Shown in pieces: positions 7,673 to 30,757 of a DNA stretch of 64,000 bases (its first letter is position 1; each line of letters begins with the position of its first letter). Both the position numbers and the translations under genes were made by a program. Source of the stretch: Bacteroidales bacterium (GTDB lineage Bacteria; Bacteroidota; Bacteroidia; Bacteroidales; UBA1715); assembly GCA_017552705.1 (NCBI GenBank), contig JAFZOY010000010.1, positions 3,486-67,485 of the forward strand, given 5' to 3'. The notes beneath the pieces were generated by a model. The model ran no database searches, was not told the DNA's origin, and saw only the letters and a list, made by a program, of their open reading frames with translations.

Positions 7673-10600
7673 CGTCAATTTGTTTCCGTTGTCCTTTCCA
7701 TTTCTCGAACGTTGTGTCGAGTTTTTCACATTGCTGTTCCATAGGCAACGTACTTGTCTCAAACAACAATTTTTTGAAATGAACGCCAAGGAATTTTTTA
7801 TTCTCATCGCCACCGAATTGGTCTTGGTATCCATCAGAGAACATATACAAGCGTGTTCCCGGTGTATAAGAGAATTGGTGGTTCGAGTAGATATTCACCT
7901 CTGTATTCATAGAGCCACCCACAGAAGCCATATCACCCTCTATAGTTTCTATCAAACCATCGTGGACACAATACACTACATGGTTTGCGGCTGCAACCTG
8001 TACAGTTTTCTCCACTTTGTTAATCAAACACAGCGTAATATCCATACCATCTTCCTGCGATTCCGGCGACGCATTTGCTTTCTGGTTGAGCGCAGTACGG
8101 ACACCAATATTCAATTTGTCGAGAACTTCGGCAGGAGTACGCAGTTTCTTATAGGTGATTTGTTGCAAAAGTGTAGCTCCAATCATCGACATAAATGCGC
8201 CAGGAACGCCATGCCCAGTACAATCAACCGCAGCCACGTACATATACCCTTCACGTTCAGTAAACCAATAAAAATCGCCACTCACAATATCGCGAGGTTT
8301 AAACAGAATAAACGCATTCGGGAAATATGTGTGCAGTTCCGAAATTGGAGGTAGTATAGCATCTTGGATACGTTTTGCATAACTGATACTATCCTTTATC
8401 AATCGGTTTGTTTTTGCAAGTTCCTCATTGTTATGAGTCAACATATCACTCTGAATCTCGAGCTTTTTGTTTTGTTCGGCAATTTCCTCAGTTCTATCGT
8501 TCACCATTTTTTCCAACTTCGCATTTTCCTCTTTGTAGAAATGTTCACGATACTTTATATATATGTATATTGCCAAGCCCAAGAATAAAATCAGCACTGA
8601 ATAGAACCACGTGGTTTTCCAGAATGGAGGCACGATAGTAATTGTCAGCTGAGTGATTTCATTGCTCCATACGCCATCATTGTTGGTGGCAGTAACCTCG
8701 AAAATATATTCCCCTCCGGCAAGATTCGTATATGTTGCGGAGCGTTTACTTGCATCTGTATAGTTCCAATCCTCATCGAAGCCAACCAAACGATATTTAT
8801 ATTGTACTTTCGAAGGAGCGACATTATTCAAAATCGAAAATTCAATGGAGAAATTGTATTTATACGATAGCGACAACTCTTTAGTCATTGTAATTGCCTG
8901 ATGAAGAATAACTTCACCTTGAATTTCATCGCCAATTTCTACTTCCTTATTATAAATTTTCAAACCTGTAACCACCACGTGTCCTGTATAGGTATCATTG
9001 GTGATGCTATCAGGGAAGAAATACGACATACCTTTTGATCCACCGAAATACAACATTCCCGAAGACGATTTGAACGTGGCGCGCTCGTTGAACGCATTTC
9101 CCTGCAAACCATCGGATTCGTTGTAGTTCGTAAACGTTTCGGCAAACGGAGCGAATCGTGAAATACCATAACATGTGCTTATCCACAAATTACCACGGCG
9201 GTCTTCCTGCATAGCAAGAACCATATCGTTGGTCAAACCATGAGATTTCTTCGTATATGAGATAAACGTTTTTTCCCTTCGGTTGAACTTACAAATACCG
9301 GCACCACCAGTACCAACCCAAAACGTGCCATTACGAGTCTCCAACAAAGAATATACAATTTCGCTGTTCAATGAATTTGCATGGTTCTGGTCAGGTTCAA
9401 AAAACTCAACGACATTAGTTTCAGGATCGACGCGCATGATACCACGTCCGTTTGTTCCTGCCCAAATAACATCTTGAGAATCAAGCATTACACTCCAAAT
9501 AACATTTCGCATGAAGTTGGATGTATTCACATCATATTTGGTAAACTTGCCTTTCTCCCATTCATATTTACACAAACCGCCTCCATACGTACCAATCCAA
9601 AGGCGAAGTTGCGCATCGAGGCAAAGTGCCGTCACAGCGTTGTTCGATAACACATTTGAAGCCTCCTCCACGTACTCATAATGATCGAGGACACCTTTCT
9701 CCAACGAGAAACGGAACAATCCATTTCCATCAGTACCCAACCAGAAGAATCCACGAGGGTCCTGTACTATGGCGGTAATCATATTTATGTTATTCTTATC
9801 GTCGTTGGTTGACTGATATGTTTTTATAACATTGAAATCCTTGTCGTAGTATAACAAACCAGCACCACGCGTTCCCACCAAGAAATGACCATCATGTTCA
9901 GCGGAATAATTCTTTATTTCCAATATGGTCATCACATTGTCGGAAGTAATCATGGATTTGAAATCCTGACTTGGATGCAACAAACTAAATTTCTTCCGAT
10001 GCGTATTGTATTTGTTTAAGCCGGCTGTTTCGGAGCCGAGCCACAAAATACCCGACTTGTCACGTAAGATCGACAAAATATTATTCGAAGAAATCGCATA
10101 ATCGTGCTGATGCATTTTTTCGGCACCAAGAAATTCCTTTGTGTTTACATCGAAATAATTCAAACCGCCGCCACGAGTACCAACATACATTATATTAGTA
10201 ATCGTGTCTTCGTAGAATGTCCATACAATATTATTAGACAACGATAGAGTGTCGAGCGGATTATTTTCGAACACTTTATATTTGTGTGTTTCTGGATTCA
10301 TAACCCCGAAACCACCGTAATAAGTACCTATCCACAAGTCTCCATGACGGTCGCATTCAATGCTCATAATGTCATGGTTGATAAAATCAACATGGGTAAA
10401 AATTCCTGTCCGTTTGTCGAATTTATCCAAACCACCGCCTTCGTTCACACCAACCCACAGATTACCAAAACGGTCCTTGTTGACCGTACGCACCTGGTTA
10501 CTACCAATAGAATTCAAATTACTCGGATTGTGCTTATAGCTTGTGAACTTATGTATTTTAGGATCAAAGCAATTCAAACCACCACCATACGTAGCCAGCC

Positions 10601-20842: not shown

Positions 20843-21538
20843 TTATTTCGCCCCAGCGACTTTTAGCGTGCGCAAATAGCATTTGTGTTCATCGGAAACA
20901 CGAAAACTTTCCACGGCTTTTTGTATAGTTTTGTTGTGTATCCACGGAGCAAGACGATGATTTTGCAATATTGGCAACGTGGCATCGTATTGTTTGGCCA
21001 GCGCTGTGGCAAAATACCATGCCTGCATCATCTTGATATAGTATTCATCACGTTTTACACCAGCGACCAATTCATGGTAACGGGGTGAAAACGTATCGTC
21101 GAGAAAATGGCGCATAAGCAAGCAAATAGCGAACCGCACAGTATACTCGTGTTTCGATTTCAGCCATTTCTCTATATATGGCAACAATTTTTCGCTATGC
21201 TTTGCAAAAATTCGGGGCGAAAGTTGGTCGCATGTCGCCCAGTTGTCGATATACGGCAAAAACTCCGCCACTCGACGCAGGCATACTTCAAAATCTTTTT
21301 CTCCAGAGATTATAAAAACATGAAGTTGATTTTCCTCGAAATAGCGATGAGGCAAGGTGTTGAGAAACGCTGAAACATCAGTGTTTCTCAACAATTCCTT
21401 GGCATATCGTTTCAGTTCGGGGGTACGAACACCAATCATAGAATCCGCATCGATAGAAGGCAATAACGGCCGCTGAAATGCGGCGTAAGCCTCGTCTGAC
21501 ACAGAAAATAAATGTTCTACAATCGTGTCGTTCAACAT
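20843..21538 (-). CDS. DNA alkylation repair protein (AlkD-like HEAT-repeat family)
   Basis: The 231 aa helical-repeat protein has the characteristic YIDNWATCDQL segment. Confidence 0.75.
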   Translation of the reverse strand: MLNDTIVEHLFSVSDEAYAAFQRPLLPSIDADSMIGVRTPELKRYAKELLRNTDVSAFLNTLPHRYFEENQLHVFIISGEKDFEVCLRRVAEFLPYIDNWATCDQLSPRIFAKHSEKLLPYIEKWLKSKHEYTVRFAICLLMRHFLDDTFSPRYHELVAGVKRDEYYIKMMQAWYFATALAKQYDATLPILQNHRLAPWIHNKTIQKAVESFRVSDEHKCYLRTLKVAGAK

Positions 21539-21540
21539 GA

Positions 21541-22128
21541 TTATTCGTAACGCTTTTCAACCACGCTCCAGTCAACAATCTGCCACAAAGCAGCCAAGTG
21601 GTCGGGACGACGATTTTGGTAATCCAAATAATATGCGTGTTCCCACACGTCGAACGTGAGCAACGGACGCAAACCCTGTTGGATAGGATTTGACGCATTT
21701 GTTTCTTGGGTAATCACCAACTTGCCGTTTTTGTCAGCCGAAAGCCACACCCAGCCAGAACCAAAAAGTGTAGCTCCTTTTTTCTGAAATTCATCCTTGA
21801 ATGCGTCGAACGAGCCAAAATCGCGAGTTATGGCATCGGCCAATTTTCCCATTGGCACTGATTTTGGAGCTTTGGCAAATTGTTCGAAATATAAATTATG
21901 GTTCAAAATCTGACCTGCATTATTGCGAATGCCTCCATCGGATTTCAGTACGATTTCTTCCAACGAAAGATTCTGAAAATCAATCCCTTGTATCAAATTA
22001 TTGAGATTATTCACATATCCAGCCAAATGTTTGCCGTGATGAAATTCTATTGTTTGTTTACTAATTATTGGTTCCAATGCATCGGCTGCATACGGAAGTT
22101 TCATCAATTCAAAAGCTTTTGTTTCCAT
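21541..22128 (-). CDS. sodB: Superoxide dismutase, Fe/Mn family
   Basis: Supporting segments are LPYAADALEPIISKQTIEFHHGKHLAGYV and the C-terminal metal-ligand motif FDVWEHAYYLDYQNRRPD. Metal specificity cannot be told from the sequence alone. Confidence 0.93.
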   Translation of the reverse strand: METKAFELMKLPYAADALEPIISKQTIEFHHGKHLAGYVNNLNNLIQGIDFQNLSLEEIVLKSDGGIRNNAGQILNHNLYFEQFAKAPKSVPMGKLADAITRDFGSFDAFKDEFQKKGATLFGSGWVWLSADKNGKLVITQETNASNPIQQGLRPLLTFDVWEHAYYLDYQNRRPDHLAALWQIVDWSVVEKRYE

Positions 22129-22250
22129 ATCGTACTATTTAAATTTACATTGTAGCGAAAATACGACAAAATTTGGAATTTTTCAAAACAACAACTTTTT
22201 GTTTGATGAATTTTTACCTGATGCTACAGAACAACGAGAAACAATCCTCA

Positions 22251-22817
22251 TCAATCGAATGGAATTATGTAAGAAAGTTCTTTCATGTGAGTAATGATTC
22301 CATCGCAGATTTCCTCGTTAAAGTGCCGCAATGCCTTATAAAACAAATCATTCGGAAAATGTATAAACATATCGTCGTTGAAAAATTTTATTATACAATG
22401 ACAACTGTTGTACTTTGTACGTGTTTCGTCAAATTCAACTGAATCAAATTGAGGAATCCCTTTTTCCATAATTGACAATTTACTGTCAGCCAACTGAAAA
22501 CGTGAACTTCCTTCAAACGAAAATGGGAACACCAATGCACCAATCACCAAAATATCTCTTGAAACGCAAGCGTTCATGATTGACAGTACTGTCAAGTCAT
22601 CGTCGCCACCAAGACAATTCAGCAAACATACATATTTCACGTCTTGGGGAACAACCAACTTCAGCATTGATTGCCATTGAGCATCGGCGGAATCAAAATA
22701 AACATCTTTGCGGATTGTAGCCACGGAAAAATGTTCCGAAAGTTTTTCCATGTTTTGTTCCACAATGTTGATTGCCCCGTCGCCAACGGCAAGCAGTAAA
22801 ACGTTATTCTCGTTCAT
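22251..22817 (-). CDS. Short divergent FtsZ/tubulin-like protein (N-terminal GTPase-domain fold only, nucleotide signature lost)
   Basis: I aligned it by eye with E. coli FtsZ. VLLLAVGDGAINIVEQNME matches VIKVIGVGGGGGNAVEHMV. KYVCLLNCLGGDDDLTVLSIMNACVSRDILVIGALVFPFSFEGSSR matches [47 protein letters not shown]. The PFSFEG motif is retained, but the tubulin signature GGGTGTG is replaced by LGGDDDL. At 188 aa it has no C-terminal (T7-loop) domain. Confidence 0.6.
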   Translation of the reverse strand: MNENNVLLLAVGDGAINIVEQNMEKLSEHFSVATIRKDVYFDSADAQWQSMLKLVVPQDVKYVCLLNCLGGDDDLTVLSIMNACVSRDILVIGALVFPFSFEGSSRFQLADSKLSIMEKGIPQFDSVEFDETRTKYNSCHCIIKFFNDDMFIHFPNDLFYKALRHFNEEICDGIITHMKELSYIIPFD

Positions 22818-22822
22818 TTCTT

Positions 22823-23854
22823 TTATAATTTTATAATAAACTGATTTTCCTCTAAATTCTTCAGTGCCATTTCAACGCCTTGTGCAACGGAATAAAATGT
22901 ATCGTCAACGAGTTTGACTTTAATTTTAGTCTTTCTGCTCAAACGTTCTGCTAAACCATATAGCATTGCTCCTCCACCCGACAGCCAAATTCCGTCAACA
23001 GCAAAGTCGTTGAACAATTCAGGGGGGACACGTTCCAGTACGTTTGACACGGCGTTTTCAATCTTCGTCAATGGTTCGTGCAGACATTCGGCTATTTCGT
23101 TCGGAGAAAGTTTTACTTCGATTTGCTCAGCCGTGACTATGTGCGCTCCAGAAACAACATAGTACGCTTGCGGATTTTCCATATCTACAAGCGCCGTTCC
23201 CGACGTTCTCTTTATTCCTTCCGCCGTACATTCACTAACTTTTATATTATGATTGATTCGCAATCCTTCCTGAATCGCCGCTGTAAAGGCTTCGCCACCA
23301 ATAGGAATACTTTCGCACACAACAATTCCGCCCATACAAATCACCGCAATCTGTGTTTTTCCGCCACCAATTTCAATTATCATTTTGCCCAAGACATTAT
23401 TCACATTCAATCCTTGGGCAATTGCAACGGCAAAAATCGAAGGAATCAGATACACATTGTTACATCCAAGGTTTTTGAACGCTTCGCGAAAAACAAGGCG
23501 GTCGCCATACGTGAAATCCAGAGGGATTCCTATTCCGATTTTCGTTTCTGCCGATATGGAACATTTTTTCTTTGCTTCCAACAGCAACTCCAGAACCAAA
23601 AGTTCAACGCTGTTGTAAAACATACTGTCATTTTTCATTGGTTGAATGATTTTAACCGTTGAAATGTTCCGCCCTTTCATATTCCTTGCCTCGTCCCACT
23701 TGCAGCAAACTTTGGGACCTTTGCTTTCCATTTCAATACCTAACCACGATGGCACATCAACAAGTACGTTTCCACCAGCTACAACAACCGAGTTGACCGT
23801 TCCCAAATCGAATGCGACAATGGGAAAATTGTTTTGTTCTTTTAAAATTTCCAT
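22823..23854 (-). CDS. MreB-like actin-family ATPase
   Basis: At 343 aa it is MreB-sized. The phosphate-1 motif is VAFDLGTVNSVVV and phosphate-2 is MIIEIGGGKTQIAVICMGGIV. IPIGGEAFTAAIQEGLRINHNIKVSECTAEGIK parallels MreB VRVAGDEMDEAI…IGERTAEEIK. The adenosine motif is GIWLSGGGAMLYGLAERLSRKTKIKV. Confidence 0.8.
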   Translation of the reverse strand: MEILKEQNNFPIVAFDLGTVNSVVVAGGNVLVDVPSWLGIEMESKGPKVCCKWDEARNMKGRNISTVKIIQPMKNDSMFYNSVELLVLELLLEAKKKCSISAETKIGIGIPLDFTYGDRLVFREAFKNLGCNNVYLIPSIFAVAIAQGLNVNNVLGKMIIEIGGGKTQIAVICMGGIVVCESIPIGGEAFTAAIQEGLRINHNIKVSECTAEGIKRTSGTALVDMENPQAYYVVSGAHIVTAEQIEVKLSPNEIAECLHEPLTKIENAVSNVLERVPPELFNDFAVDGIWLSGGGAMLYGLAERLSRKTKIKVKLVDDTFYSVAQGVEMALKNLEENQFIIKL

Positions 23855-23861
23855 TTTTCTA

Positions 23862-24482
23862 CTATTTATAAAAAGTAACCATTGGACTGTTTAATTTGTC
23901 GATAAATCTTTTCAACCGATAGCGAAAAATAAACGACCTGTAATTATTTGATGAAATATGAAAAATTACTTCTGCAATGACTTTATGTGCCTCTTGTAAG
24001 GCGGAAGACAAAGGCATTTTGCCATATTGTTCCTTGATTTGTTGATTATGTAAAACAATGGTGGCAGTAGCTTTTTCGCCTAATAACTTCAAGGCATGCT
24101 TCGCCTTTTCTGTTGCTCCTTCAACATCATACGGCAGAATGCCGATACCGATAACTGTGCTTCCATTCTTTTGTAATGCTTCAGCTAGAACATTTGCCAT
24201 AGCCCCAGTTTTTCCTTCAAGTCCTACAATTACTATAGAAAGACGACCTTTAAACCTTGAAAAATCAATGATATCATTTACATTTACAACAATATCCTCT
24301 GCGTTTGTTGGAACGTTTTCCTTTTCCATAGATAATTCCATTCCCTTGAAATGCCAACAACAAAACTGAATTTGGAGATTAGCATTGTGTTGCAAATTGC
24401 GTCGAACATCACTGACAACACTGATACCAACTTTACCAATACCGATTAAGGAGATTTTTTCTTGTTTCTTTGAATGTTTCAT
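23862..24482 (-). CDS. Short divergent FtsZ/tubulin-like protein (N-terminal GTPase domain through helix H7, degenerate signature)
   Basis: [18 protein letters not shown] matches the FtsZ strand1/G-box. [69 protein letters not shown] matches [93 protein letters not shown] matches LLDAFGAANDVLKGAVQGIAELI. It is 206 aa and has no C-terminal domain. Confidence 0.6.
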   Translation of the reverse strand: [206 protein letters not shown]

Positions 24483-24504
24483 ATTAGTAATTTTATGTTT
24501 TCTG

Positions 24505-24556
24505 TTGCAAACATAAACGCAAGGTGTGCCATATCAGGGCAGAGGTTGAAAAAAAT
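24505..24556 (+). repeat. Intergenic direct repeat family, copy 1
   Basis: The sequence is ttgcaaacataaacgcaaggtGTGCCATATCAGGGCAGAGG-TTGAAAAAAAt. It matches copies at 26949, 27582 and 28946. Confidence 0.85.
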
Positions 24557-24562
24557 ATGGCT

Positions 24563-24585
24563 GTGCCGTGTTTTGGCAGAGGTTG
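24563..24585 (+). repeat. Partial tandem reiteration of the repeat core
   Basis: GTGCCgtgttttGGCAGAGGTTG mirrors GTGCCatatcagGGCAGAGGTTG 40 nt upstream. Confidence 0.6.
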
Positions 24586-24614
24586 TATATACGTTTGTGA
24601 AAAATCTGATAGAA

Positions 24615-25265
24615 ATGAATATAGAAAAACTTTACGAGAACCCGAAACTTGTTGATATAGAGGAAACCATTCTCTCTCTTGAAGAACATCCTTGCAAAAA
24701 CAACGACAATGAAATCGAGAGACTTTTTCTTGAACGAAAGAAATTTCTTGACGCAGCGTTTCCTTTCAACAACGAAACATCGAAACTTTTGAGAACATTC
24801 AACGAAAGTCTTCGTAATGCGCTTGTTGAAACGTATGAAAAAACAAAAGAATACTACGACAAAGTACTACGTTGGAACGATGACAAAACATTTCGTGTGG
24901 AATCGAAACTGACGTTAGGCGAATATCCTGCGTTACACCCAATACAAACAGAGCGTAGCCACGATATTTGGAACATTTTGTCATACGGCGGTTACGATAA
25001 CTATTACGACCTCGTAGGCATAAACGATTTATTTATGGATAAAGATTGTCCAGAAAACATCAACACCTTAGACTATTTCCTATATCTTGGAAGAGCAGGC
25101 GAAAGGGTTGATAATTGGAACGAACATCTGCCGACAGATTGGAGCAAGGATATGAATTTGCTCTATGGATTCCATAACCTTTACGACCACACATGGTTCA
25201 GCCTTTACGACTTTATTTTCGTTCGTGAATTTGAACAGAATTATGAGATTTATATTGATAGGTGA
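24615..25265 (+). CDS. Hypothetical protein (216 aa), no recognisable family
   Basis: The start was refined to ATG 24615 (MNIEKLYENPKL). The ORF-track extension from 24474 runs through the intergenic repeat. Composition is coding-like and the protein is W/Y/D/N-rich. Confidence 0.55.
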   Translation: MNIEKLYENPKLVDIEETILSLEEHPCKNNDNEIERLFLERKKFLDAAFPFNNETSKLLRTFNESLRNALVETYEKTKEYYDKVLRWNDDKTFRVESKLTLGEYPALHPIQTERSHDIWNILSYGGYDNYYDLVGINDLFMDKDCPENINTLDYFLYLGRAGERVDNWNEHLPTDWSKDMNLLYGFHNLYDHTWFSLYDFIFVREFEQNYEIYIDR

Positions 25266-25279
25266 ATTAAATTATTACT

Positions 25280-26422
25280 TCAATGTTTGCATTCATTTAT
25301 CAATTTCTTAAAAAACGAGTAAGCCTCATTGTATTCTCCGAGACCAAAGCATCTATGTATCCCTTGATTCTCATTAGGGAGTTCAATTTCTGATTTTTTT
25401 AATTTTAATTTTTCTCTCACCATTTCTCTTTTGTCTTCTGGTAAAGGAGCTATTCCCACGTAAAAATTGCCATATGGGTCTGTATGACCACCTGAAATGG
25501 AAACGTTAACATTTCCACATTCCATAAATTTTTCTATTGTTACTTGTGTAATCGGCCAATACCCATTCTGACTTGGTTTTAAAGTCTTAAAATCAGTTTC
25601 CGTGTTTGTTCTCCATTTATCGTATAAATCTTCAAATTTCTTATTACACAATTGATTCATTTGTTCAACAACTAAAGAAATATTGTCTTTGTCTATTAGG
25701 AGTTTATCTATGTCTTTTGTATTATAATGCTCCTCAATCAAGTTATTTAATTCCATATTCATATTATAATAAATTGAACCTGTTCTAAACATTTTATTTC
25801 CCTCTAAATAATCAACGTATTGCAATAATGCAGACGATAAAAACACATCTTTCTGACGTACATTAGGAATAACTATGGATTTTAACCATGGCAGAATATC
25901 ATATCTGAAAGACAAATTAATGTATCTTGATTTGAAACTTTCTTTATATTCTCCCCACGACTGCGAGTCTGGTTCTTTCCCATCTCTTGAAAGGTAAATC
26001 ACAAAAATTTGCTCTTCTTTATATTTTTTCTCTTTGGTTCTTTCAATATATCGACAAATTTGAGCATCTTGATCTTCCGCATTATATACTTTATTTTCAA
26101 AGATGATTGCATAATCATCATCACGAACCCATAAATCAATTCTTTCCTTTTCTTGAGTAATTGTAGGGTTTGTAATTTTTATTTCTCCAAAGTTTGGATT
26201 TTTCTGCTTTACAGAATCTAACAAAGATTGCAAGATTTCATATTCGTTCTTTTCGTTTTTATACTGCAACAATTTTGTCAATACCCGACTATGCCCGTTT
26301 TCATTAATGTGCAATTCATCAATTATATTGACATGATAAGGAAGTTTATTTTCTTCCTCCTCTTTCTTTTTCCTAAATTCTTTGGAAAAATTTAATAAGT
26401 CTTCTAATTCTTGTTTTTCCAT
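25280..26422 (-). CDS. PD-(D/E)XK nuclease-superfamily protein (PDDEXK_4-like architecture)
   Basis: The start was refined to ATG 26422 (MEKQELEDLL). H…NENGHSRVLTKLL is followed by the core motif ERIDLWVRDDDYAIIFENKV (D…E-x-K), then QICRY. The gene is AT-rich. Confidence 0.6.
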   Translation of the reverse strand: MEKQELEDLLNFSKEFRKKKEEEENKLPYHVNIIDELHINENGHSRVLTKLLQYKNEKNEYEILQSLLDSVKQKNPNFGEIKITNPTITQEKERIDLWVRDDDYAIIFENKVYNAEDQDAQICRYIERTKEKKYKEEQIFVIYLSRDGKEPDSQSWGEYKESFKSRYINLSFRYDILPWLKSIVIPNVRQKDVFLSSALLQYVDYLEGNKMFRTGSIYYNMNMELNNLIEEHYNTKDIDKLLIDKDNISLVVEQMNQLCNKKFEDLYDKWRTNTETDFKTLKPSQNGYWPITQVTIEKFMECGNVNVSISGGHTDPYGNFYVGIAPLPEDKREMVREKLKLKKSEIELPNENQGIHRCFGLGEYNEAYSFFKKLINECKH

Positions 26423-26499
26423 ACAACAAATTTGCAGTAAATATACAAGTTTTTCAAAAAAAAACGGCAAGACGAATTTATCATCTTGCCGCCACAATC

Positions 26500-26637
26500 C
26501 TACTTTTTCGGCACGAAAGCATAGATTTTACCATTAATAAATTTTGCTTCGCCACCTAAAAGTCGTGCCGCATTCAACAATTCACCTTGTGAACTGTACG
26601 TTTGAACGTTTCCGTTCGGGAAATTTAATTGATACAT
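26500..26637 (-). CDS. Possible 45-aa small protein
   Basis: I translated it manually as MYQLNFPNGNVQTYSSQGELLNAARLLGGEAKFINGKIYAFVPKK*. It falls below the ORF-track length cut-off and fills an otherwise empty gap between two minus-strand genes. Confidence 0.3.
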   Translation of the reverse strand: MYQLNFPNGNVQTYSSQGELLNAARLLGGEAKFINGKIYAFVPKK

Positions 26638-26689
26638 ACTATTAATATTTTTAATTTTTGCCTCCACTTACGGCTTTCGGCATCTCCGT

Positions 26690-26902
26690 TTAGTTATTGA
26701 TTTCACTATCGTTTTCCACTTTTTTGATACACTCCTCAACATCGGCAATCAACTTTTTTAAGAATTCTGTTTTTGCGGTTTTGTCGGGAAAATTATCAGG
26801 ATTGGATTTGAATTCCATATCAATTAACTCTCTAATCGTAAATTCCCATCCCATACCATCTTCGTCTGGGGCAACGTAAAAATAATAATCGTTCATATCC
26901 AT
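26690..26902 (-). CDS. Hypothetical small acidic protein (70 aa)
   Basis: The ORF has coding-like composition (MDMNDYYFYVAPDEDGMGWEFTIRELIDMEF…). I recognised no family. Confidence 0.45.
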   Translation of the reverse strand: MDMNDYYFYVAPDEDGMGWEFTIRELIDMEFKSNPDNFPDKTAKTEFLKKLIADVEECIKKVENDSEINN

Positions 26903-26948
26903 AATCCCTAATATGTGTCGGGCACAACTTTTAATTATTAATTACTTC

Positions 26949-26998
26949 GCAAACATATTCTCGATCTATGCCAAATCAAGGCAGAGGTTTGAAAAAAT
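26949..26998 (+). repeat. Intergenic direct repeat family, copy 2
   Basis: The sequence is gcaaacatattctcgatcTATGCCAAATCAAGGCAGAGGTTTGAAAAAAt. Confidence 0.85.
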
Positions 26999-27021
26999 TT
27001 TTTCATGTGTGGAATTTGAAA

Positions 27022-27570
27022 TCAATCATTCACCACCACCAAACATACCCGTATTGGTTCCGTCATTGATTCGTCTAATAAATAATTCCATAAAATATAG
27101 GTATCGTCTTGAGACTTATGGAGATACGAAAATATTTCCTCAAGTTCCCCTGTAGTAGGTTCGTTTTCTACGTTGTTAACGGCAATAAGCATCATAATTC
27201 GATGTGGGAACTGCAATTTGCTGAAATTCTCTTCACACTGAACTTGTAAATCGTTGATAAAAGGGTGTTTCAACGCATTTTCGTACGCTTCTTTGAGCGT
27301 TTTTCCATAACCACTCGAGACAAAAATTGCCTTCTCGCACGTGGTTTCATCTCCATTTTCGCCAACAAGAAAATGCTTTACATCAAGGTAATCAATGGAT
27401 ACCCAAGATACTTTGTAGCAACTTTCCCAAATACCATTCGCCACAACTTTCGCTTCGGCGTTTGTGATGGTTTCAAACTCGTTTTCGCCCAAAACTGTGG
27501 CAATCATCTTTTTCAACTGCTTGCCCGTTTCCGTCCAGTCTTTGTCTACATTAAAATCTAACAATTCCAT
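27022..27570 (-). CDS. Hypothetical protein (182 aa), no recognisable family
   Basis: This is a clean ORF bounded on both sides by repeat copies 2 and 3 (MELLDFNVDKDWTETGKQLKKMIATVLGENEFE…). Confidence 0.5.
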   Translation of the reverse strand: MELLDFNVDKDWTETGKQLKKMIATVLGENEFETITNAEAKVVANGIWESCYKVSWVSIDYLDVKHFLVGENGDETTCEKAIFVSSGYGKTLKEAYENALKHPFINDLQVQCEENFSKLQFPHRIMMLIAVNNVENEPTTGELEEIFSYLHKSQDDTYILWNYLLDESMTEPIRVCLVVVND

Positions 27571-27581
27571 TGTTTTTTTTC

Positions 27582-27632
27582 GACAAAGAAAAACACAAGG
27601 TATGCCATATCAAGGCGGAGGTTTGAAAAAAT
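27582..27632 (+). repeat. Intergenic direct repeat family, copy 3
   Basis: The sequence is gacaaagaaaaacacaaggTATGCCATATCAAGGCGGAGGTTTGAAAAAAt. Confidence 0.85.
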
Positions 27633-27726
27633 CATGAATTTCTTAGAAATTTTTTGCCTCGCCAAAAAAAATTATTACATTTGTCTAATAAAATTATTAG
27701 ATACACCTAATAAAATTTTTAACACA

Positions 27727-28914
27727 ATGAAAAGAACTATATATCAAACGGTTATAAATCGTTTAAAAGAGCCAAGAAAGTTTATCCAAGTATTGTTTGG
27801 ACCTCGTCAGGTGGGAAAAACAACGTTGATGACACAGGTTCTCGAAGAAATTGAAACGCCATATCTGTTTGTTACCGCCGACGATATTGCAGGCATGGAC
27901 GATGCGTGGTTGCATACGGTTTGGAATCGAGCCCGTGTGGAACAAAGCGAGAAAAAAGACCAAGATTTTTTATTGGTTATTGACGAGGTTCAAAAGATTC
28001 AGAATTGGAGCGAGATAGTAAAAAAGGAATGGGATGCCGATACGCAAAGCCATCGGCCGATAAAAGTTGTTTTACTTGGCTCCTCGTCGTTGTTGATTCA
28101 AAAAGGTTTGTCGGAATCACTGGCTGGGAGGTTTGAGCAGATGTATATCACCCACTGGTCGTATGCCGAAATGAAAGAAGCATTTGATTTTTCGATTGAC
28201 CAGTATATTATGTACGGTGGCTATCCCGGGGCTGCTTCGCTTGTCGGCGATGAACAGCGATGGCGTAGTTACGTGCGTCAGTCGTTGGTGGAAACAACTC
28301 TGTCGAAGGATATTCTTATGATGACACAGGTGAACAAGCCCATTCTGCTTCGACGGCTGTTTGACATTGGTAGTTCGTATTCCGCACAAATTCTTTCGCT
28401 GAACAAAATTCAAGGGGAGCTGAACGAGAAAGGAAATCTTACGACTTTGGGCGGGTATCTCGACCTTTTAAACGCGGCAGGTCTGTTGTGCGGTCTCGAC
28501 AAATATGCGGGAAGCATTATCTACCAACGTGCCTCGAAACCTAAACTGCAAGTTCACAATAATGCCTTGATGAGCATTCAAAGTATGAAAACTCTTGCAG
28601 AAGCAAAAGCAGACACAACATATTGGGGACGTTTGGTGGAATCAGCAGTTGGCACACATTTGTTAAATTATTCGAAGACAGAAGGTTATGAATTATATTA
28701 TTGGAACGAAAATTCCAAGGAAGTGGACTTTGTGTTGAAATGTGGAGAAAAAATTGTGTCGCTGGAAGTAAAAAGCGGTGTTGATTCCCAAAACGAAGGC
28801 ATAGCCTTGTTTCAAGGGAAATTTCATCCATCGTTGTCACTTGTGATTGGTACGGACGGAATACCATTTGAAAAGTTTTTCACAATGAATCCCTTAGAGC
28901 TTTTTAAAATTTAG
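27727..28914 (+). CDS. AAA-family ATPase with a C-terminal DUF4143-like (restriction-endonuclease-like) domain
   Basis: The start was refined to ATG 27727 (MKRTIYQTV). Walker A is LFGPRQVGKTTL and Walker B is LLVIDEVQK. The C-terminal segment YYWNENSKEVDFVL…EVKSG is typical of this widespread family. Confidence 0.8.
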   Translation: MKRTIYQTVINRLKEPRKFIQVLFGPRQVGKTTLMTQVLEEIETPYLFVTADDIAGMDDAWLHTVWNRARVEQSEKKDQDFLLVIDEVQKIQNWSEIVKKEWDADTQSHRPIKVVLLGSSSLLIQKGLSESLAGRFEQMYITHWSYAEMKEAFDFSIDQYIMYGGYPGAASLVGDEQRWRSYVRQSLVETTLSKDILMMTQVNKPILLRRLFDIGSSYSAQILSLNKIQGELNEKGNLTTLGGYLDLLNAAGLLCGLDKYAGSIIYQRASKPKLQVHNNALMSIQSMKTLAEAKADTTYWGRLVESAVGTHLLNYSKTEGYELYYWNENSKEVDFVLKCGEKIVSLEVKSGVDSQNEGIALFQGKFHPSLSLVIGTDGIPFEKFFTMNPLELFKI

Positions 28915-28945
28915 CCTTGGTACAAAAGAGAATAAAATTTGTAGA

Positions 28946-28991
28946 GCAAAAAAACAAAGGTATGCCAAATCAAGGCAGAGGTTTGAAAAAT
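28946..28991 (+). repeat. Intergenic direct repeat family, copy 4
   Basis: The sequence is gcaaaaaaacaaaggTATGCCAAATCAAGGCAGAGGTTTGAAAAAt. Confidence 0.85.
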
Positions 28992-29083
28992 TGTTTTCAA
29001 AAATTGAATTACTTCAGTTTTCTGTAACTAAACAACGCCTTTGCTTATATATTTGCATTGGTTACAATAGAAAGGAATCACTT

Positions 29084-29494
29084 ATGGGACGAATACTTGC
29101 TATAGATTACGGAACGAAGCGCACGGGAATTGCGGTCACCGACCCGTTGCAACTCATTGCCAACGCGTTGACAACAGTGCGAAGCTGCGATTTGATACAA
29201 TTTCTTACGGACTATTTTGCCAAGGAACAAGTTGACCACGTGGTGATTGGTATGCCCACAACGCTCCGTAACGAACCCTCGGAAAATGCAAAACATGTGA
29301 AAATTTTTGAGAAACAGTTTCAAAAAACATTTCCCAATATGCCCATCAGCGAGATGGACGAACGATTTACCTCAACGATTGCACATCAGGCGATGCTTGC
29401 CGGCGGCATGAAGAAAAAAGACCGCCAAAACAAAGAAGTTGTCGATAGCATCAGCGCCACTATCATTCTGCAATCGTATATGGAACGAAGATAA
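29084..29494 (+). CDS. ruvX: Holliday-junction resolvase-like nuclease RuvX (YqgF)
   Basis: The start was refined to ATG 29084. MGRILAIDYGTKRTGIAVTD and DERFTS…A motifs are present, and the protein is 136 aa. Confidence 0.9.
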   Translation: MGRILAIDYGTKRTGIAVTDPLQLIANALTTVRSCDLIQFLTDYFAKEQVDHVVIGMPTTLRNEPSENAKHVKIFEKQFQKTFPNMPISEMDERFTSTIAHQAMLAGGMKKKDRQNKEVVDSISATIILQSYMERR

Positions 29495-29497
29495 ATA

Positions 29498-29908
29498 TTA
29501 ATTCCTTGAAGCTATTTCATCTAAAATTTTGATTTTTTCTTCATTAGATAAATCTATAAAACCGAGGGTAAAACAATTGAAATATTTCTCATAATATTTT
29601 TGTTCTTGCAACATAGACATTGTCATCCAATCTTTGTTTAATTTTTGGTCCTCAAGTTCATAGAATTCATTAGATCTCAATGTGCATACAGAAGTATTTT
29701 GCTTTAAATCCACTCTGTATGAATAAACTAACAATTGATACTTATTATCTATATATCTTAAAAATTCTATAACTCCATAATCTTGCGTCTTGCTATAAAT
29801 TGTCACAAGAGTTTCTTTTTGAGCAACATTCATAGATACAAAATCTTGTTTATATAGAGAGCATGAATGTAGAAAAAACACAATATTTAATAATAATAAC
29901 TTTTTCAT
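29498..29908 (-). CDS. Hypothetical lipoprotein (136 aa)
   Basis: It has a lipobox-type signal, MKKLLLLNIVFFLHSCS. The coding sequence is very AT-rich. Confidence 0.5.
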   Translation of the reverse strand: MKKLLLLNIVFFLHSCSLYKQDFVSMNVAQKETLVTIYSKTQDYGVIEFLRYIDNKYQLLVYSYRVDLKQNTSVCTLRSNEFYELEDQKLNKDWMTMSMLQEQKYYEKYFNCFTLGFIDLSNEEKIKILDEIASRN

Positions 29909-29977
29909 TTTAATACTTTATATGATTGAGATGCCAAAACATTGTAAATTCCCGTGTTATAAATGGCATATTCGATT

Positions 29978-30757
29978 TCATTCTACCCATATTGCTTGGG
30001 TTGCATTGCAAGAAAAAATATTCTCATTGCTATTAGTGTCATATACGAAACACTGATTTCCTTTTTTATATAAAATATATTTATCGTCGTTTGAATATAA
30101 TGGACAACAGCCTTCAATATAAAAATCCTTAAATTCATTTTTGTGTATATTATATTCCACAATAGTCGGAAGCTCTTTTATTTTCCTCCAATCATATTTT
30201 CCAACAATTCTCTCACAGATTATTTTTTCCCTATCAGAAGAAAAAGATGGATTAAAATATCCTATTTTATAACCTTTATCAATTTGTTTTGGTTCAAGAA
30301 TAGAGAAAATATTTCCATTGCTGTCTTTGGTTTCTACAAATCCCATATTGTTTAATATCTGTATTTTATTACAATATAAATCCTCTATATTTGTTATAGA
30401 AAGATGCTCTAATTCAGAATTAGAAACTCTATAGAAATATTTATTTTCTATTATTGTGTCATTTTTTAATGTCACATCATTTTCGTCAAATTCCACAATA
30501 ATTTCGGATAAAAATTTATTTTGATAAAAGAAATAATAATCATTCTTTTTGTATAATGTTACAATATATTTGTTGTCGTGATGGTAACAACATCCAAATT
30601 CCCAGAGTTCAAGATTATTGATCGAAATTATCTCTTTTTGAATATTGCGCTCCATATCATAAAATATAAGTTTATCGTTATCAGATATGACAATGTTTTG
30701 TAAAGCAATAGCATTTTGTATAAACAAAGTAAAAAATATTACAAATAGTACTCTCAT
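29978..30757 (-). CDS. Hypothetical secreted protein (259 aa)
   Basis: It has a signal peptide MRVLFVIFFTLFIQNAIA. The protein is N/K/I/Y-rich with paired Cys (GCCYHH, GCCPLY) and is very AT-rich. Confidence 0.5.
   Translation of the reverse strand: MRVLFVIFFTLFIQNAIALQNIVISDNDKLIFYDMERNIQKEIISINNLELWEFGCCYHHDNKYIVTLYKKNDYYFFYQNKFLSEIIVEFDENDVTLKNDTIIENKYFYRVSNSELEHLSITNIEDLYCNKIQILNNMGFVETKDSNGNIFSILEPKQIDKGYKIGYFNPSFSSDREKIICERIVGKYDWRKIKELPTIVEYNIHKNEFKDFYIEGCCPLYSNDDKYILYKKGNQCFVYDTNSNENIFSCNATQAIWVE

What the first reader, a model, noticed from the sequence alone, without database searches (positions are those of the whole stretch)
22509..24224. Both FtsZ-like paralogues have degenerate nucleotide-binding signatures, each in a different way
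The tubulin/FtsZ signature GGGTG(T/S)G reads GLEGKTG in the 206-aa protein (24204..24224). It reads LGGDDDL in the 188-aa protein (22590..22616). The first G-box (GVGGGG) reads GIGKVG and VGDGAI respectively.

The first protein keeps a glycine/threonine-containing loop that could still contact phosphate. The second replaces it with three aspartates, which should repel nucleotide phosphates. Yet the second keeps a perfect PFSFEG strand (22509..22526).

This pattern, one possibly competent and one dead subunit, is reminiscent of heterodimeric tubulin-like pairs. It argues for selection rather than pseudogenisation, because both ORFs are intact and tightly packed.
Basis: partly seen in the sequence, partly recalled or inferred. 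Interest (0 to 1): 0.6.

Follow-up and report, generated by a model that had tools for sequence, protein, structure and literature searches.

The report
Degenerate half-FtsZ pair flanking MreB-like gene
A rumen Bacteroidales genome has a three-gene operon in which a catalytically altered copy of the cell-shape protein MreB is flanked by two different "front halves" of the cell-division protein FtsZ with degenerate GTP-binding loops. Selection keeps both, but the evidence is against a tubulin-style heterodimer, and their function is untested.

Summary
Every quoted motif lies at the stated coordinates. Profile-profile alignment to FtsZ and a fold model of the 188-aa protein support the register, with a one-residue shift in that protein (GGGTGTG = GGDDDLT).

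- Both proteins stop at helix H7, so they have no T7 catalytic loop and no C-terminal domain.
- Both lack the T3 loop.
- The two are not close paralogues of each other.

Selection rather than decay is supported. All ORFs are intact in four loci. dN/dS is about 0.2-0.45 for the 188-aa protein B, about 0.2 for the MreB-like protein M, and 0.35-0.8 for the 206-aa protein A.

The heterodimer reading is not supported:
- B occurs alone in at least five loci, including a second copy in this genome.
- B occurs with M but without A in a yak-rumen MAG.
- A and B occur with M replaced by a small gene in another locus.
- A was never found without B.

The module is rare, found only in ruminant-gut Bacteroidales. 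It changes chromosomal site, shares a roughly 50-nt promoter element with neighbouring defence-type cassettes, and usually lies beside such genes.

The best reading is two non-GTPase binding modules derived from FtsZ; the mechanism is inferred. This scan noted the M-B cassette earlier on other DNA (e1-2126723).

The parts
23862..24482 (-). Gene A, 206 aa. An FtsZ homologue with the N-terminal domain only (residues 6-179 match FtsZ 14-200), plus a 27-residue basic tail.
   Evidence: Pfam Tubulin 32.7 bits against a cut-off of 33. Profile against PDB FtsZ, E 1.1e-10. hhalign against FtsZ N-domains, probability 99.6%, E 2.1e-24. Five orthologue clusters, which form a single 50%-identity cluster among 1.84 billion representatives.
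24426..24443 (-). A's T1 loop equivalent, GIGKVG (canonical GVGGGG).
   Evidence: Orthologues read GIGRVG, GMGSVG, GIGSAG and GLGGAG; only the GxGxxG glycines are invariant.
24204..24224 (-). A's T4 signature equivalent, GLEGKTG (canonical GGGTGTG lies within [10 protein letters not shown]).
   Evidence: Orthologues read GLEEKTG, ALEEKTG and GLAGRTG; only T92 and G93 are invariant.
23865..23945 (-). A's C-terminal tail, residues 180-206. It has net charge +6, is moderately amphipathic, and is the most conserved part of A.
   Evidence: 16 of 27 positions are invariant. Hydrophobic moment 0.63, with K+R 7 against D+E 1. It lies beyond the end of the FtsZ alignment. Its role is inferred only.
22823..23854 (-). 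Gene M, 343 aa. A divergent MreB-like actin-fold protein that is not the housekeeping MreB.
   Evidence: Pfam MreB_Mbl 230 bits, but below the NCBIfam MreB cut-offs. The true mreB-mreC pair is on another contig at 381 bits. It keeps DLGT, IGGG and SGGG, but IPSIFAVAIA replaces (Y/E)EPxAAAIG and EIGGGKTQ replaces DIGGGTTE. dN/dS is about 0.2.
22251..22817 (-). Gene B, 188 aa. A minimal FtsZ N-domain fold that ends after H7. It is acidic (K+R 15, D+E 28).
   Evidence: AF2 model and fold searches. hhalign to FtsZ, E 3.4e-9. 53 homologue clusters. dN/dS 0.2-0.45.
22770..22787 (-). B's T1 loop equivalent, VGDGAI.
   Evidence: G12, D13, G14, A15, I16 and N17 are at least 90% conserved.
22590..22610 (-). 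B's T4 signature equivalent, GGDDDLT (residues 70-76).
   Evidence: L66-G71 are invariant, D72 is at least 90% conserved, and D73 and D74 vary.
22509..22526 (-). B's T5 region, PFSFEG, invariant in the family.
24483..24560 (-). Conserved promoter-like element upstream of A. The core is AACCTCTGCCCTGATATGGCAC (24527-24547), followed by TATGTTTG, which fits the Bacteroides -7 box TAnnTTTG (consensus recalled from memory).
   Evidence: The same element lies 35-55 nt before the first gene of every B module and of other accessory cassettes.

Best explanation
Shown:
- A and B are two separately diverged homologues of FtsZ that consist of the N-terminal domain only.
- Both stop at helix H7, so neither has a T7 loop or a C-terminal domain. 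Both lack the T3 loop. Both have replaced the phosphate-binding glycines of T1 and T4: A with K/V and E/K, and B with two conserved aspartates, D13 and D72.
- They flank an MreB-like protein that keeps its nucleotide-binding glycine loops. It has lost the Glu of the EPxAAA motif, which I recall as catalytic.
- B is the core of the module. It occurs alone (usually followed by a conserved 113-aa gene), with M, or with A and M. A occurs only upstream of B.
- The module is rare, changes chromosomal site, is driven by a promoter element shared with neighbouring accessory cassettes, and usually lies beside defence-type genes.

Inferred:
- Neither protein is a GTPase or a subunit of a head-to-tail polymer. 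They are kept as non-catalytic binding modules.
- In B the invariant residues cluster on the former nucleotide face (T4, T5, T6-H7). That face is therefore the working surface.
- The most likely use of that surface is to bind the T7-bearing bottom face of a full-length FtsZ/tubulin-type protein, which would make B a filament-end capper or sequestering protein. A small ligand is the alternative.
- A would add a second such module with a conserved basic tail that could dock on M or on the membrane.

I put about 0.8 on the structural and evolutionary description and about 0.25 on the capper mechanism.
For: - Homology and register. Fold of B.
- Truncation at H7 and loss of T3.
- Family conservation: in B, 28 of the 36 invariant positions fall in L66-G71, P98-S105 and N147-I174; D13 and D72 are at least 90% conserved.
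- A's loops vary, and its C-terminal half and tail are conserved.
- Purifying selection.
- Locus variants: A-M-B in the window, L032 and L031. A-75aa-B in L029/L030. M-B without A in L038, at a different chromosomal site. Solo B in L001, L002, L027 (this genome), L039 and L040.
- Mosaic history between the window and L031: dS is 0.45-0.52 for A, 0.10 for M and 0.83-1.04 for B.
- Rarity: no B in 400 other genomes of the order, and only two other MAGs among 185,579 species representatives.
- Defence-type neighbours: PADLOC PDC-S26 and PDC-S01 in the window, McrBC, two GmrSD genes, and an AAA_21/OLD-like ATPase.
- Shared promoter element.
- M's altered motifs.
Against: - No binding partner was identified.
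- A could not be folded (pLDDT 35.5), so its pocket geometry is unknown.
- A capper would normally need a nucleotide-loaded top face, and here the pocket is degenerate.
- Conservation of T4, T5, T6 and H7 in B could equally mean that a non-GTP ligand is still bound.
- The defence association is by neighbourhood only. None of the three proteins matches PADLOC, and no relatives were found in phage collections.
- A's dN/dS is high (up to 0.8, and not significantly below 1 in two pairs), so A may be only weakly functional.
Confidence: 0.6

Rival explanations
1. One reading: A (possibly GTP-competent) and B (dead) form a heterodimer like alpha/beta-tubulin or BtubA/B, which assembles, perhaps together with the MreB-like protein.
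For: A and B are co-transcribed in four loci, and A was never seen without B. Their net charges are complementary: A is basic and B is acidic. Both are under purifying selection.
Against: Both lack the T7 loop and the C-terminal domain that make the longitudinal contact in every known tubulin/FtsZ pair. B stands alone, or with M only, in at least six loci, including a 97%-identical copy without A. A's putative GTP loops vary among orthologues. The A and B profiles are barely related.
Confidence: 0.1
2. The pocket is repurposed rather than dead. B, and perhaps A, still binds a nucleoside, a nucleotide-derived signal or a metal through the retained T5 Glu, the T6 Asn and H7, with the new aspartates. 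It would then act as a sensor or small-molecule sponge inside a defence-type cassette.
For: The invariant residues of B line the former nucleotide pocket. These include E102 of PFSFEG, N147-D148 and N167, plus the conserved D13 and D72. Many other short FtsZ-like proteins keep GG(K/R)TG or an intact GGGTGSG. B occurs as a solo gene beside defence genes.
Against: No ligand can be inferred. The T1 and T4 glycines and the whole T3 loop are missing. In the alignment, a Leu (L163) and an Asn (N167) of B sit opposite the aromatic residue and the Asp of this genome's FtsZ H7. From memory, those two FtsZ residues stack on and recognise the guanine base.
Confidence: 0.15
3. The three genes are an accessory cytoskeletal or segregation module of a mobile element. 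This would be analogous to ParM/ParR or TubZ/TubR, with M as the filament and A and B as adaptors.
For: M is an MreB/ParM-superfamily protein with intact nucleotide-binding loops and gives a weak PHROG 'partition protein' hit. The module moves between chromosomal sites.
Against: No integrase, replication, conjugation or centromere-like repeat array was seen next to the operon in the loci read. B mostly occurs without M. The closest M relatives outside the triad, at 54% identity, sit with unrelated small proteins.
Confidence: 0.1
4. The genes are decaying remnants of duplicated ftsZ and mreB genes with no function.
For: The catalytic motifs of all three proteins are degenerate. A's dN/dS reaches 0.8 and is about 1.2 in its N-terminal half in pairs that involve L029.
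Against: There are no stops or frameshifts in any of 10 or more loci. pN is below pS at p of 4e-6 or lower for B and M in every pair, and at p of 0.019 or lower for A in four of six pairs. Blocks of invariant residues are conserved across 27 B sequences that go down to 43% identity.
Confidence: 0.03

Closest known systems
FtsZ, N-terminal GTPase domain (Pfam PF00091; TIGR00065)
   Same: The fold is the same, as is the order of elements S1-T1-H1 through T4, T5, T6 and H7. PFxFEG (T5), the T6 Asn and H7 can all be aligned.
   Different: There is no T7 loop, no C-terminal domain and no T3 loop, and GGGTG(S/T)G is not kept. The proteins are 188 and 206 aa, against 461 aa for the open frame holding this genome's own FtsZ. 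They are not in the dcw/ftsA context.
FtsZl1 (Pfam Tubulin_2, PF13809) and FtsZl2 families of Makarova and Koonin 2010 (PMC2875224)
   Same: These are divergent FtsZ-superfamily proteins outside cell-division loci. FtsZl1 also lacks recognisable T6-H7 elements and the canonical C-domain, and its filament formation is in doubt.
   Different: According to that paper, those families keep the GGGTG(S/T)G loop and are large multidomain proteins with a coiled coil or a roughly 300-aa C-region, in operons with vWA, OmpA and GTPase genes. A and B gave no Tubulin_2 hit in the Pfam scan and are single-domain proteins.
Alpha/beta-tubulin and BtubA/B heterodimers
   Same: Two diverged superfamily members are encoded side by side.
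   Different: From general knowledge, both subunits of those pairs are full-length, both bind GTP, and the asymmetry lies in the T7 catalytic residue. Here both proteins lack T7 and the C-domain, and B is usually found without A.
FtsZ filament cappers and inhibitors (SulA, MciZ, MipZ; bottom-interface FtsZ mutants)
   Same: An N-domain-only FtsZ would present a top face without a bottom face. That is the geometry of a capping subunit (inference). PMC9897490 describes end-capping of FtsZ polymers by MipZ (title and abstract).
   Different: Those inhibitors are either unrelated folds or full-length FtsZ mutants that still bind GTP. No interaction has been shown here.
FtsZ-FtsA and MamK/FtsZm pairings of tubulin-like and actin-like proteins
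   Same: A tubulin-superfamily gene and an actin-superfamily gene lie in one operon. A has a conserved C-terminal tail in the position where FtsZ carries its FtsA-binding peptide (the role of that peptide is from memory).
   Different: A's tail has no evident sequence similarity to the C-terminal end of this genome's FtsZ. M belongs to the MreB family, not FtsA or MamK. The partners are non-catalytic halves.
Other short (about 180-250 aa) FtsZ-like proteins with the N-domain only, found in metagenomes (for example P0209, P0060, P0086, P0141, P0149)
   Same: They have the same truncation after H7. Several also lack the T3 segment in the alignment. T4 variants such as GG(K/R)TG resemble A's loop.
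   Different: Most keep GGxxG(T/S) and reach the Pfam Tubulin threshold. They sit in other contexts: next to EF-Tu, RtcB, or SNF2 plus AAA_5. I found no paper describing this class.

Membership tests
FtsZ/tubulin superfamily (homology of the N-terminal domain) | Rossmann-like GTPase-domain fold with the T1 to T6 and H7 order of elements | tested here: met
   B: model matches FtsZ at Z 15.2, rmsd 3.1 over 169 residues, with PhuZ, CetZ and TubZ next; Foldseek top hits are all FtsZ. A: by profile only (probability 99.6%, E 2.1e-24); its structure model failed.
FtsZ/tubulin superfamily (functional GTPase) | Signature GGGTG(S/T)G in loop T4 | tested here: not met
   A has LEGKTGA at the aligned positions. 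B has GGDDDLT..
FtsZ/tubulin superfamily (functional GTPase) | Glycine-rich T1 loop (GGGGxN) and T3 loop (GxGxGxxP) | tested here: not met
   T1 reads GIGKVGIS in A and VGDGAIN in B. The T3 segment is deleted in both.
FtsZ proper (TIGR00065, cell division) | T7 synergy loop (NxDxxD) and C-terminal domain | tested here: not met
   The alignments end at FtsZ residues 200 (A) and 196 (B), just before the T7 loop. TIGR00065 scores are 44 and 10.6 bits against a cut-off of 295. The true FtsZ lies on another contig next to an FtsA-like gene.
FtsZl1 / Tubulin_2 (PF13809) | Match to the Tubulin_2 model; large protein with a coiled coil | tested here: not met
   The Pfam scan at E up to 1 lists only PF00091. 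The proteins are 188 and 206 aa.
MreB (rod-shape protein), for gene M | Match to MreB_Mbl with the actin-fold phosphate-1, phosphate-2 and adenosine motifs | tested here: met
   PF06723 at 230 bits. DLGT, IGGG and SGGG are conserved.
MreB (rod-shape protein), for gene M | Equivalog-level score, the Glu of EPxAAA, and mreCD synteny | tested here: not met
   NCBIfam scores are 237 against a cut-off of 293, and 206 against 366. IPSIFAVAIA replaces the EP motif. mreC lies beside the other MreB, on contig C52.
Known anti-phage defence systems (PADLOC-DB 2.0) | Match of A, M or B to a defence-system model | tested here: not met
   No hit for any of the three. Only the neighbours hit, to the candidate families PDC-S26 and PDC-S01.
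Tubulin-type heterodimer | Obligate co-occurrence of the two subunits | tested here: not met
   B occurs without A in L001, L002, L027, L038, L039 and L040.
Tubulin-type heterodimer | Physical association of A and B | not testable with these tools
   This needs co-purification or a solved complex.

The most novel reading that the evidence does not exclude
The cassette is an immune or conflict device built from disabled halves of the cell's own cytoskeleton. In one version, the half-FtsZ proteins and the hydrolysis-impaired MreB act as decoys or guards that bind phage-encoded inhibitors of FtsZ and MreB. In another, they act as dominant-negative cappers that arrest division or poison phage tubulin or actin filaments on infection. 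The phosphate pocket filled by conserved aspartates would then mimic a permanently 'nucleotide-loaded' interface.
Probability: 0.2. Interest if true: 0.85.

Novelty: new variant of a known kind. Interest (0 to 1): 0.55.

Why it matters
FtsZ and tubulin are normally discussed as GTP-driven polymers whose two domains are both needed for assembly. This locus shows two separate families that keep only the nucleotide-binding half, have lost the GTP-binding glycines, and are still under purifying selection. They travel with a similarly altered MreB, in cassettes that shuffle among defence-type islands of rumen Bacteroidales.

If these halves cap, sequester or imitate cytoskeletal proteins, they would be natural, genetically encoded regulators or decoys of FtsZ and MreB, and a new class of component in microbial conflict systems. 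If instead they bind a ligand, they would show a new use of the tubulin-fold pocket.

In either case the locus gives a compact, testable system: three small soluble proteins, with natural variants that lack A or M.

Tried and rejected
- Structure of A: AlphaFold2 on the 5-sequence alignment gave pLDDT 35.5, which is unusable.
- Complex prediction of A, M and B together, with B as the scored partner: score 0.00, and the tool returned 'no answer'. This counts neither for nor against binding.
- PADLOC, PHROGs and NCBIfam: no family for A or B. M hits only an uncharacterised PHROG and, weakly, a partition protein.
- Phage collections: tblastn against 50,697 phage records, and pattern plus tblastn scans of IMG/VR, gave no relatives of A or B. 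The protein-atlas hint that similar short proteins occur in Uroviricota clusters therefore stays an untested lead.
- Rfam scan of 21000-30000: nothing at E up to 0.1. The sigma-70 and terminator scan was uninformative: no minus-strand terminator inside the operon, and promoter-like sites were close to the shuffled expectation.
- The 175-aa protein upstream of the 54%-identical M relative in L034 was tested as a possible third half-FtsZ. It is not related to A or B.
- I tried to define the island borders from sodB-ruvX synteny in four related genomes. The two genes are not linked there.
- The best PDB sequence hit of the B profile was poxvirus uracil-DNA glycosylase (E 0.01, 47 residues). I rejected it as a short local match. 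The fold and the profile-profile comparisons both favour FtsZ.
- SGNH-hydrolase and other flavodoxin-like folds score Z 10.7 or less for B, against 15.2 for FtsZ. I did not adopt them.
Full report
**What is there.** On the minus strand of the window lie three tightly packed genes:
- A, 206 aa, at 23862-24482
- M, 343 aa, at 22823-23854
- B, 188 aa, at 22251-22817

The gaps between them are 7 and 5 nt. No minus-strand terminator-like site lies inside the operon. The genome is a 2.9-Mb Bacteroidales assembly, 97.5% complete. Its ordinary ftsZ, next to an FtsA-like gene, and its ordinary mreB-mreC pair lie on other contigs. The three genes here are therefore extra copies.

**The observation.**
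- All quoted motifs are at the quoted coordinates.
- A is related to FtsZ at the sequence level. Pfam Tubulin scores 32.7 bits against a cut-off of 33. A 5-sequence profile finds FtsZ structures at E 1.1e-10. Profile-profile comparison with 41 FtsZ N-domains gives probability 99.6%, E 2.1e-24, over A 6-179 and FtsZ 14-200.
- In that alignment GIGKVG lies on [16 protein letters not shown] on [10 protein letters not shown], and LPYDVEG on LPYKFEG.
- B has no Pfam family above threshold. Its 27-sequence profile matches the FtsZ N-domain alignment at probability 96.1%, E 3.4e-9. It also matches a short FtsZ-like protein with an intact GGGTGSG at probability 94%.
- Both alignments place GGGTG(T/S)G on G70-G71-D72-D73-D74-L75-T76.
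- The alignment to the short FtsZ-like protein also covers T1 and places it on V11-I16.
- The AlphaFold2 model of B (pLDDT 75.5, pTM 0.77) has FtsZ as every listed top Foldseek hit.
- In an exhaustive comparison with about 48,000 chains, FtsZ scores Z 15.2, PhuZ 13.2, CetZ 13.1 and TubZ 11.9. The first unrelated fold scores 10.7.
- ESM Atlas neighbours of the B model are Bacteroidota Tubulin/FtsZ clusters, with TM 0.71-0.74.

1. Both proteins end with helix H7. The alignments stop at FtsZ residues 200 and 196, just before the T7 loop, and there is no C-terminal domain.
2. The T3 loop is deleted in both. B's model has no counterpart of strand S3.
3. A carries a 27-residue tail with net charge +6. 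It is the best conserved part of the protein.
4. A and B are not close paralogues. Their profiles match each other at probability 7% only.
5. In the B family only the first aspartate of the triplet (D72) is conserved, together with D13 in T1. The other two positions vary.
6. In the A family the T1 and T4 loops themselves vary. T1 reads GIGKVG, GIGRVG, GMGSVG, GIGSAG or GLGGAG. T4 reads GLEGKTG, GLEEKTG, ALEEKTG or GLAGRTG.
7. M is altered too. It keeps the DLGT, IGGG and SGGG loops, but IPSIFAVAIA replaces the (Y/E)EPxAAAIG motif and EIGGGKTQ replaces DIGGGTTE. That the Glu of the EP motif is catalytic in MreB is from my memory, not tested here.

**Selection.** In four loci (window, L032, L031, L029) all reading frames are intact.

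| Gene | Pairwise dN/dS | Test of pN below pS |
|---|---|---|
| M | about 0.2 | p of 4e-6 or lower in every pair |
| B | 0.2-0.45 | p between 6e-14 and 6e-9 in every pair |
| A | 0.35-0.8 | p 0.0004-0.019 in four of six pairs; not significant in two pairs with L029 |

A's N-terminal half, which carries T1 to T4, has dN/dS of 0.36-1.19, against 0.32-0.58 for its C-terminal half. 'Selection, not pseudogenisation' therefore holds firmly for B and M and weakly for A. The pattern in A argues against a conserved GTP site.

Between the window and L031, synonymous divergence is 0.45-0.52 for A, 0.10 for M and 0.83-1.04 for B. The three genes therefore have different histories, which indicates recombination within the operon.

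**Distribution and architecture.**
- The A family is tiny: five 90%-identity clusters, which form a single 50%-identity cluster among 1.84 billion representatives.
- The B family has 53 clusters, all from ruminant or gut metagenomes where a source name is given.
- B was not found in 400 other genomes of the order. The only other hits there fall in 270-624-aa open frames, most of them of FtsZ length, at E around 1e-4.
- Among 185,579 species representatives, B is present in only two other MAGs, from yak reticulum and sheep rectum.

Loci read:

| Architecture | Loci |
|---|---|
| A-M-B | window, L032 (J6Y55 MAG), L031; P0003 contig shows A followed by a gene of at least 339 aa, then ends |
| A-75aa-B (M replaced by a small gene that also occurs elsewhere in these islands) | L029, L030 |
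| M-B without A (B 97% identical to the window's; next to ispG instead of sodB) | L038 |
| B alone | L001, L002, L039, L040, and L027 (a second copy in this same genome) |

In four of the solo loci B is followed by a highly conserved 113-aa gene. A was never seen without B. B is mostly seen without A. This asymmetry is hard to reconcile with an obligate heterodimer.

M's nearest relatives outside the triad (54% identity) sit in an HTH-175aa-M-313aa module. The 175-aa protein there is unrelated to A or B.

**Context.**
- In the window the operon lies at the edge of a low-GC block (GC 0.28-0.38 against about 0.42 elsewhere).
- That block holds a PD-(D/E)XK protein matching PADLOC candidate PDC-S26 and an AAA_14/DUF4143 ATPase matching PDC-S01.
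- Elsewhere B modules lie beside McrBC-type genes with a WYL gene nearby, two GmrSD genes, or an AAA_21/OLD-like ATPase.
- A roughly 50-nt element precedes the first gene of every B module by 35-55 nt. Its core is AACCTCTGCCYTGWTWTGGCAC, followed by a box fitting the Bacteroides TAnnTTTG -7 consensus (consensus recalled from memory).
- The same element also precedes other accessory cassettes.
- The genome has 8 copies of the element and none in the reversed-pattern control. The other copies sit before AAA/nSTAND3-like and AAA_5 genes, with a YgjP-type peptidase gene just downstream of the latter, and before a 177-aa orphan.
- The operon is therefore one of a set of interchangeable cassettes with a common promoter.
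- The defence association is by neighbourhood only. A, M and B match no PADLOC model and have no relatives in phage collections.

**How it most likely works.** It is shown that neither A nor B has the elements needed for GTP hydrolysis or for canonical head-to-tail assembly. It is also shown that B is the conserved core of the module.

The rest is inferred. In B, 28 of the 36 invariant positions lie in L66-G71 (T4), P98-S105 (T5) and N147-I174 (T6-H7). These segments form the nucleotide pocket and the top longitudinal face in FtsZ, so that face is probably still the working surface. Two uses fit.
- **Preferred, about 0.25.** The face docks onto the T7-bearing bottom face of a full-length FtsZ/tubulin-type protein, so that B caps or sequesters it. 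The conserved D13 and D72 may stand in for the phosphates. A would be an add-on module whose basic tail could bind M or the membrane.
- **Alternative, about 0.15.** The face binds some ligand other than GTP.

A segregation module and simple decay are less likely, as set out under the rival explanations. A three-chain complex prediction returned no verdict, and the model of A failed. No statement about binding rests on them.

**Comparison with what is known.**
- The proteins are homologues of the FtsZ N-domain but fail every functional criterion of FtsZ: the signature, T3, T7 and the C-domain.
- They are not FtsZl1 or FtsZl2, which keep GGGTG(S/T)G and are large multidomain proteins (PMC2875224). 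They gave no Tubulin_2 hit.
- The exhaustive search also turned up many other complete FtsZ-like proteins of about 180-250 aa with the N-domain only and with intact or partly altered signatures. A and B are therefore extreme members of a wider class of 'half-FtsZ' proteins.
- I found no description of that class in the papers searched.

Earlier notes of this scan describe the M-B cassette in another rumen genome (e1-2126723) and a truncated FtsZ in another defence island (e1-3612908). My independent tests agree with both.

**Verdict.** The selection argument is supported. The 'competent plus dead heterodimer' model is not supported. The finding is a new variant within the FtsZ superfamily with an untested, probably non-enzymatic role. 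Interest is moderate.

Noticed in passing
window 24527-24547, 26969-26989, 27603-27623, 28963-28983; also L032 6936-6956, L038 4897-4917, L027 7690-7710, L001 5947-5967: A roughly 50-nt conserved element sits 35-55 nt upstream of the first gene of every half-FtsZ module and of several other accessory, defence-type cassettes. Its core is AACCTCTGCCYTGWTWTGGCAC on the gene strand, followed by a TAnnTTTG-like box. The genome has 8 copies and none in the reversed-pattern control. It looks like a shared promoter/operator or a cassette junction.
   Followed up: partly
G000 contig C48, locus L027 7745-8272 (B2) and 8322-8663: This genome has a second, solo copy of the B family (about 43% identical to relatives of the window's B). 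It is followed by a 113-aa gene and two GmrSD-type restriction genes. The 113-aa gene is highly conserved downstream of solo B genes in L001, L039 and L040.
   Followed up: partly
L029 7629-7856; window 26500-26637 (minus strand): In one lineage the MreB-like gene between A and B is replaced by a 75-aa gene. Its homologues are small ORFs that sit upstream of the PD-(D/E)XK genes of these islands, including one in this window.
   Followed up: partly
window 22823-23854 (M, residues about 135-170): The MreB-like protein and its close relatives have lost the Glu-Pro of the conserved EPxAAA motif (IPSIFAVAIA) and changed DIGGGTTE to EIGGGKTQ, while keeping the nucleotide-binding glycine loops. This suggests ATP binding with impaired hydrolysis.
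   Followed up: partly
window 25280-26497 and 27634-28914: A PD-(D/E)XK (PDDEXK_4) protein matches PADLOC candidate PDC-S26. An AAA_14/DUF4143 ATPase matches PDC-S01 at E 3.9e-174. Both lie in the low-GC block between the operon and ruvX. The PDDEXK_4 gene is also the upstream neighbour of the triad in the J6Y55 MAG.
   Followed up: partly
L028 6396-6941 (genome G180); proteins P0060, P0065, P0075, P0086, P0141, P0149, P0187: Complete FtsZ-like proteins of 180-250 aa that end after H7 are present in metagenomes, with intact (GGGTGSG) or partly altered (GG(K/R)TG, GGxFGT) signatures. They sit in varied contexts: next to EF-Tu, RtcB, or SNF2 plus AAA_5. I found no paper describing this class.
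   Followed up: partly
L034 3821-6767: The nearest relatives of M outside the triad (54% identity) sit in a different four-gene module. It consists of an Xre-type HTH, a 175-aa orphan, the MreB-like gene and an acidic 313-aa orphan, inserted after the gene for ribosomal protein L19 (rplS).
   Followed up: no
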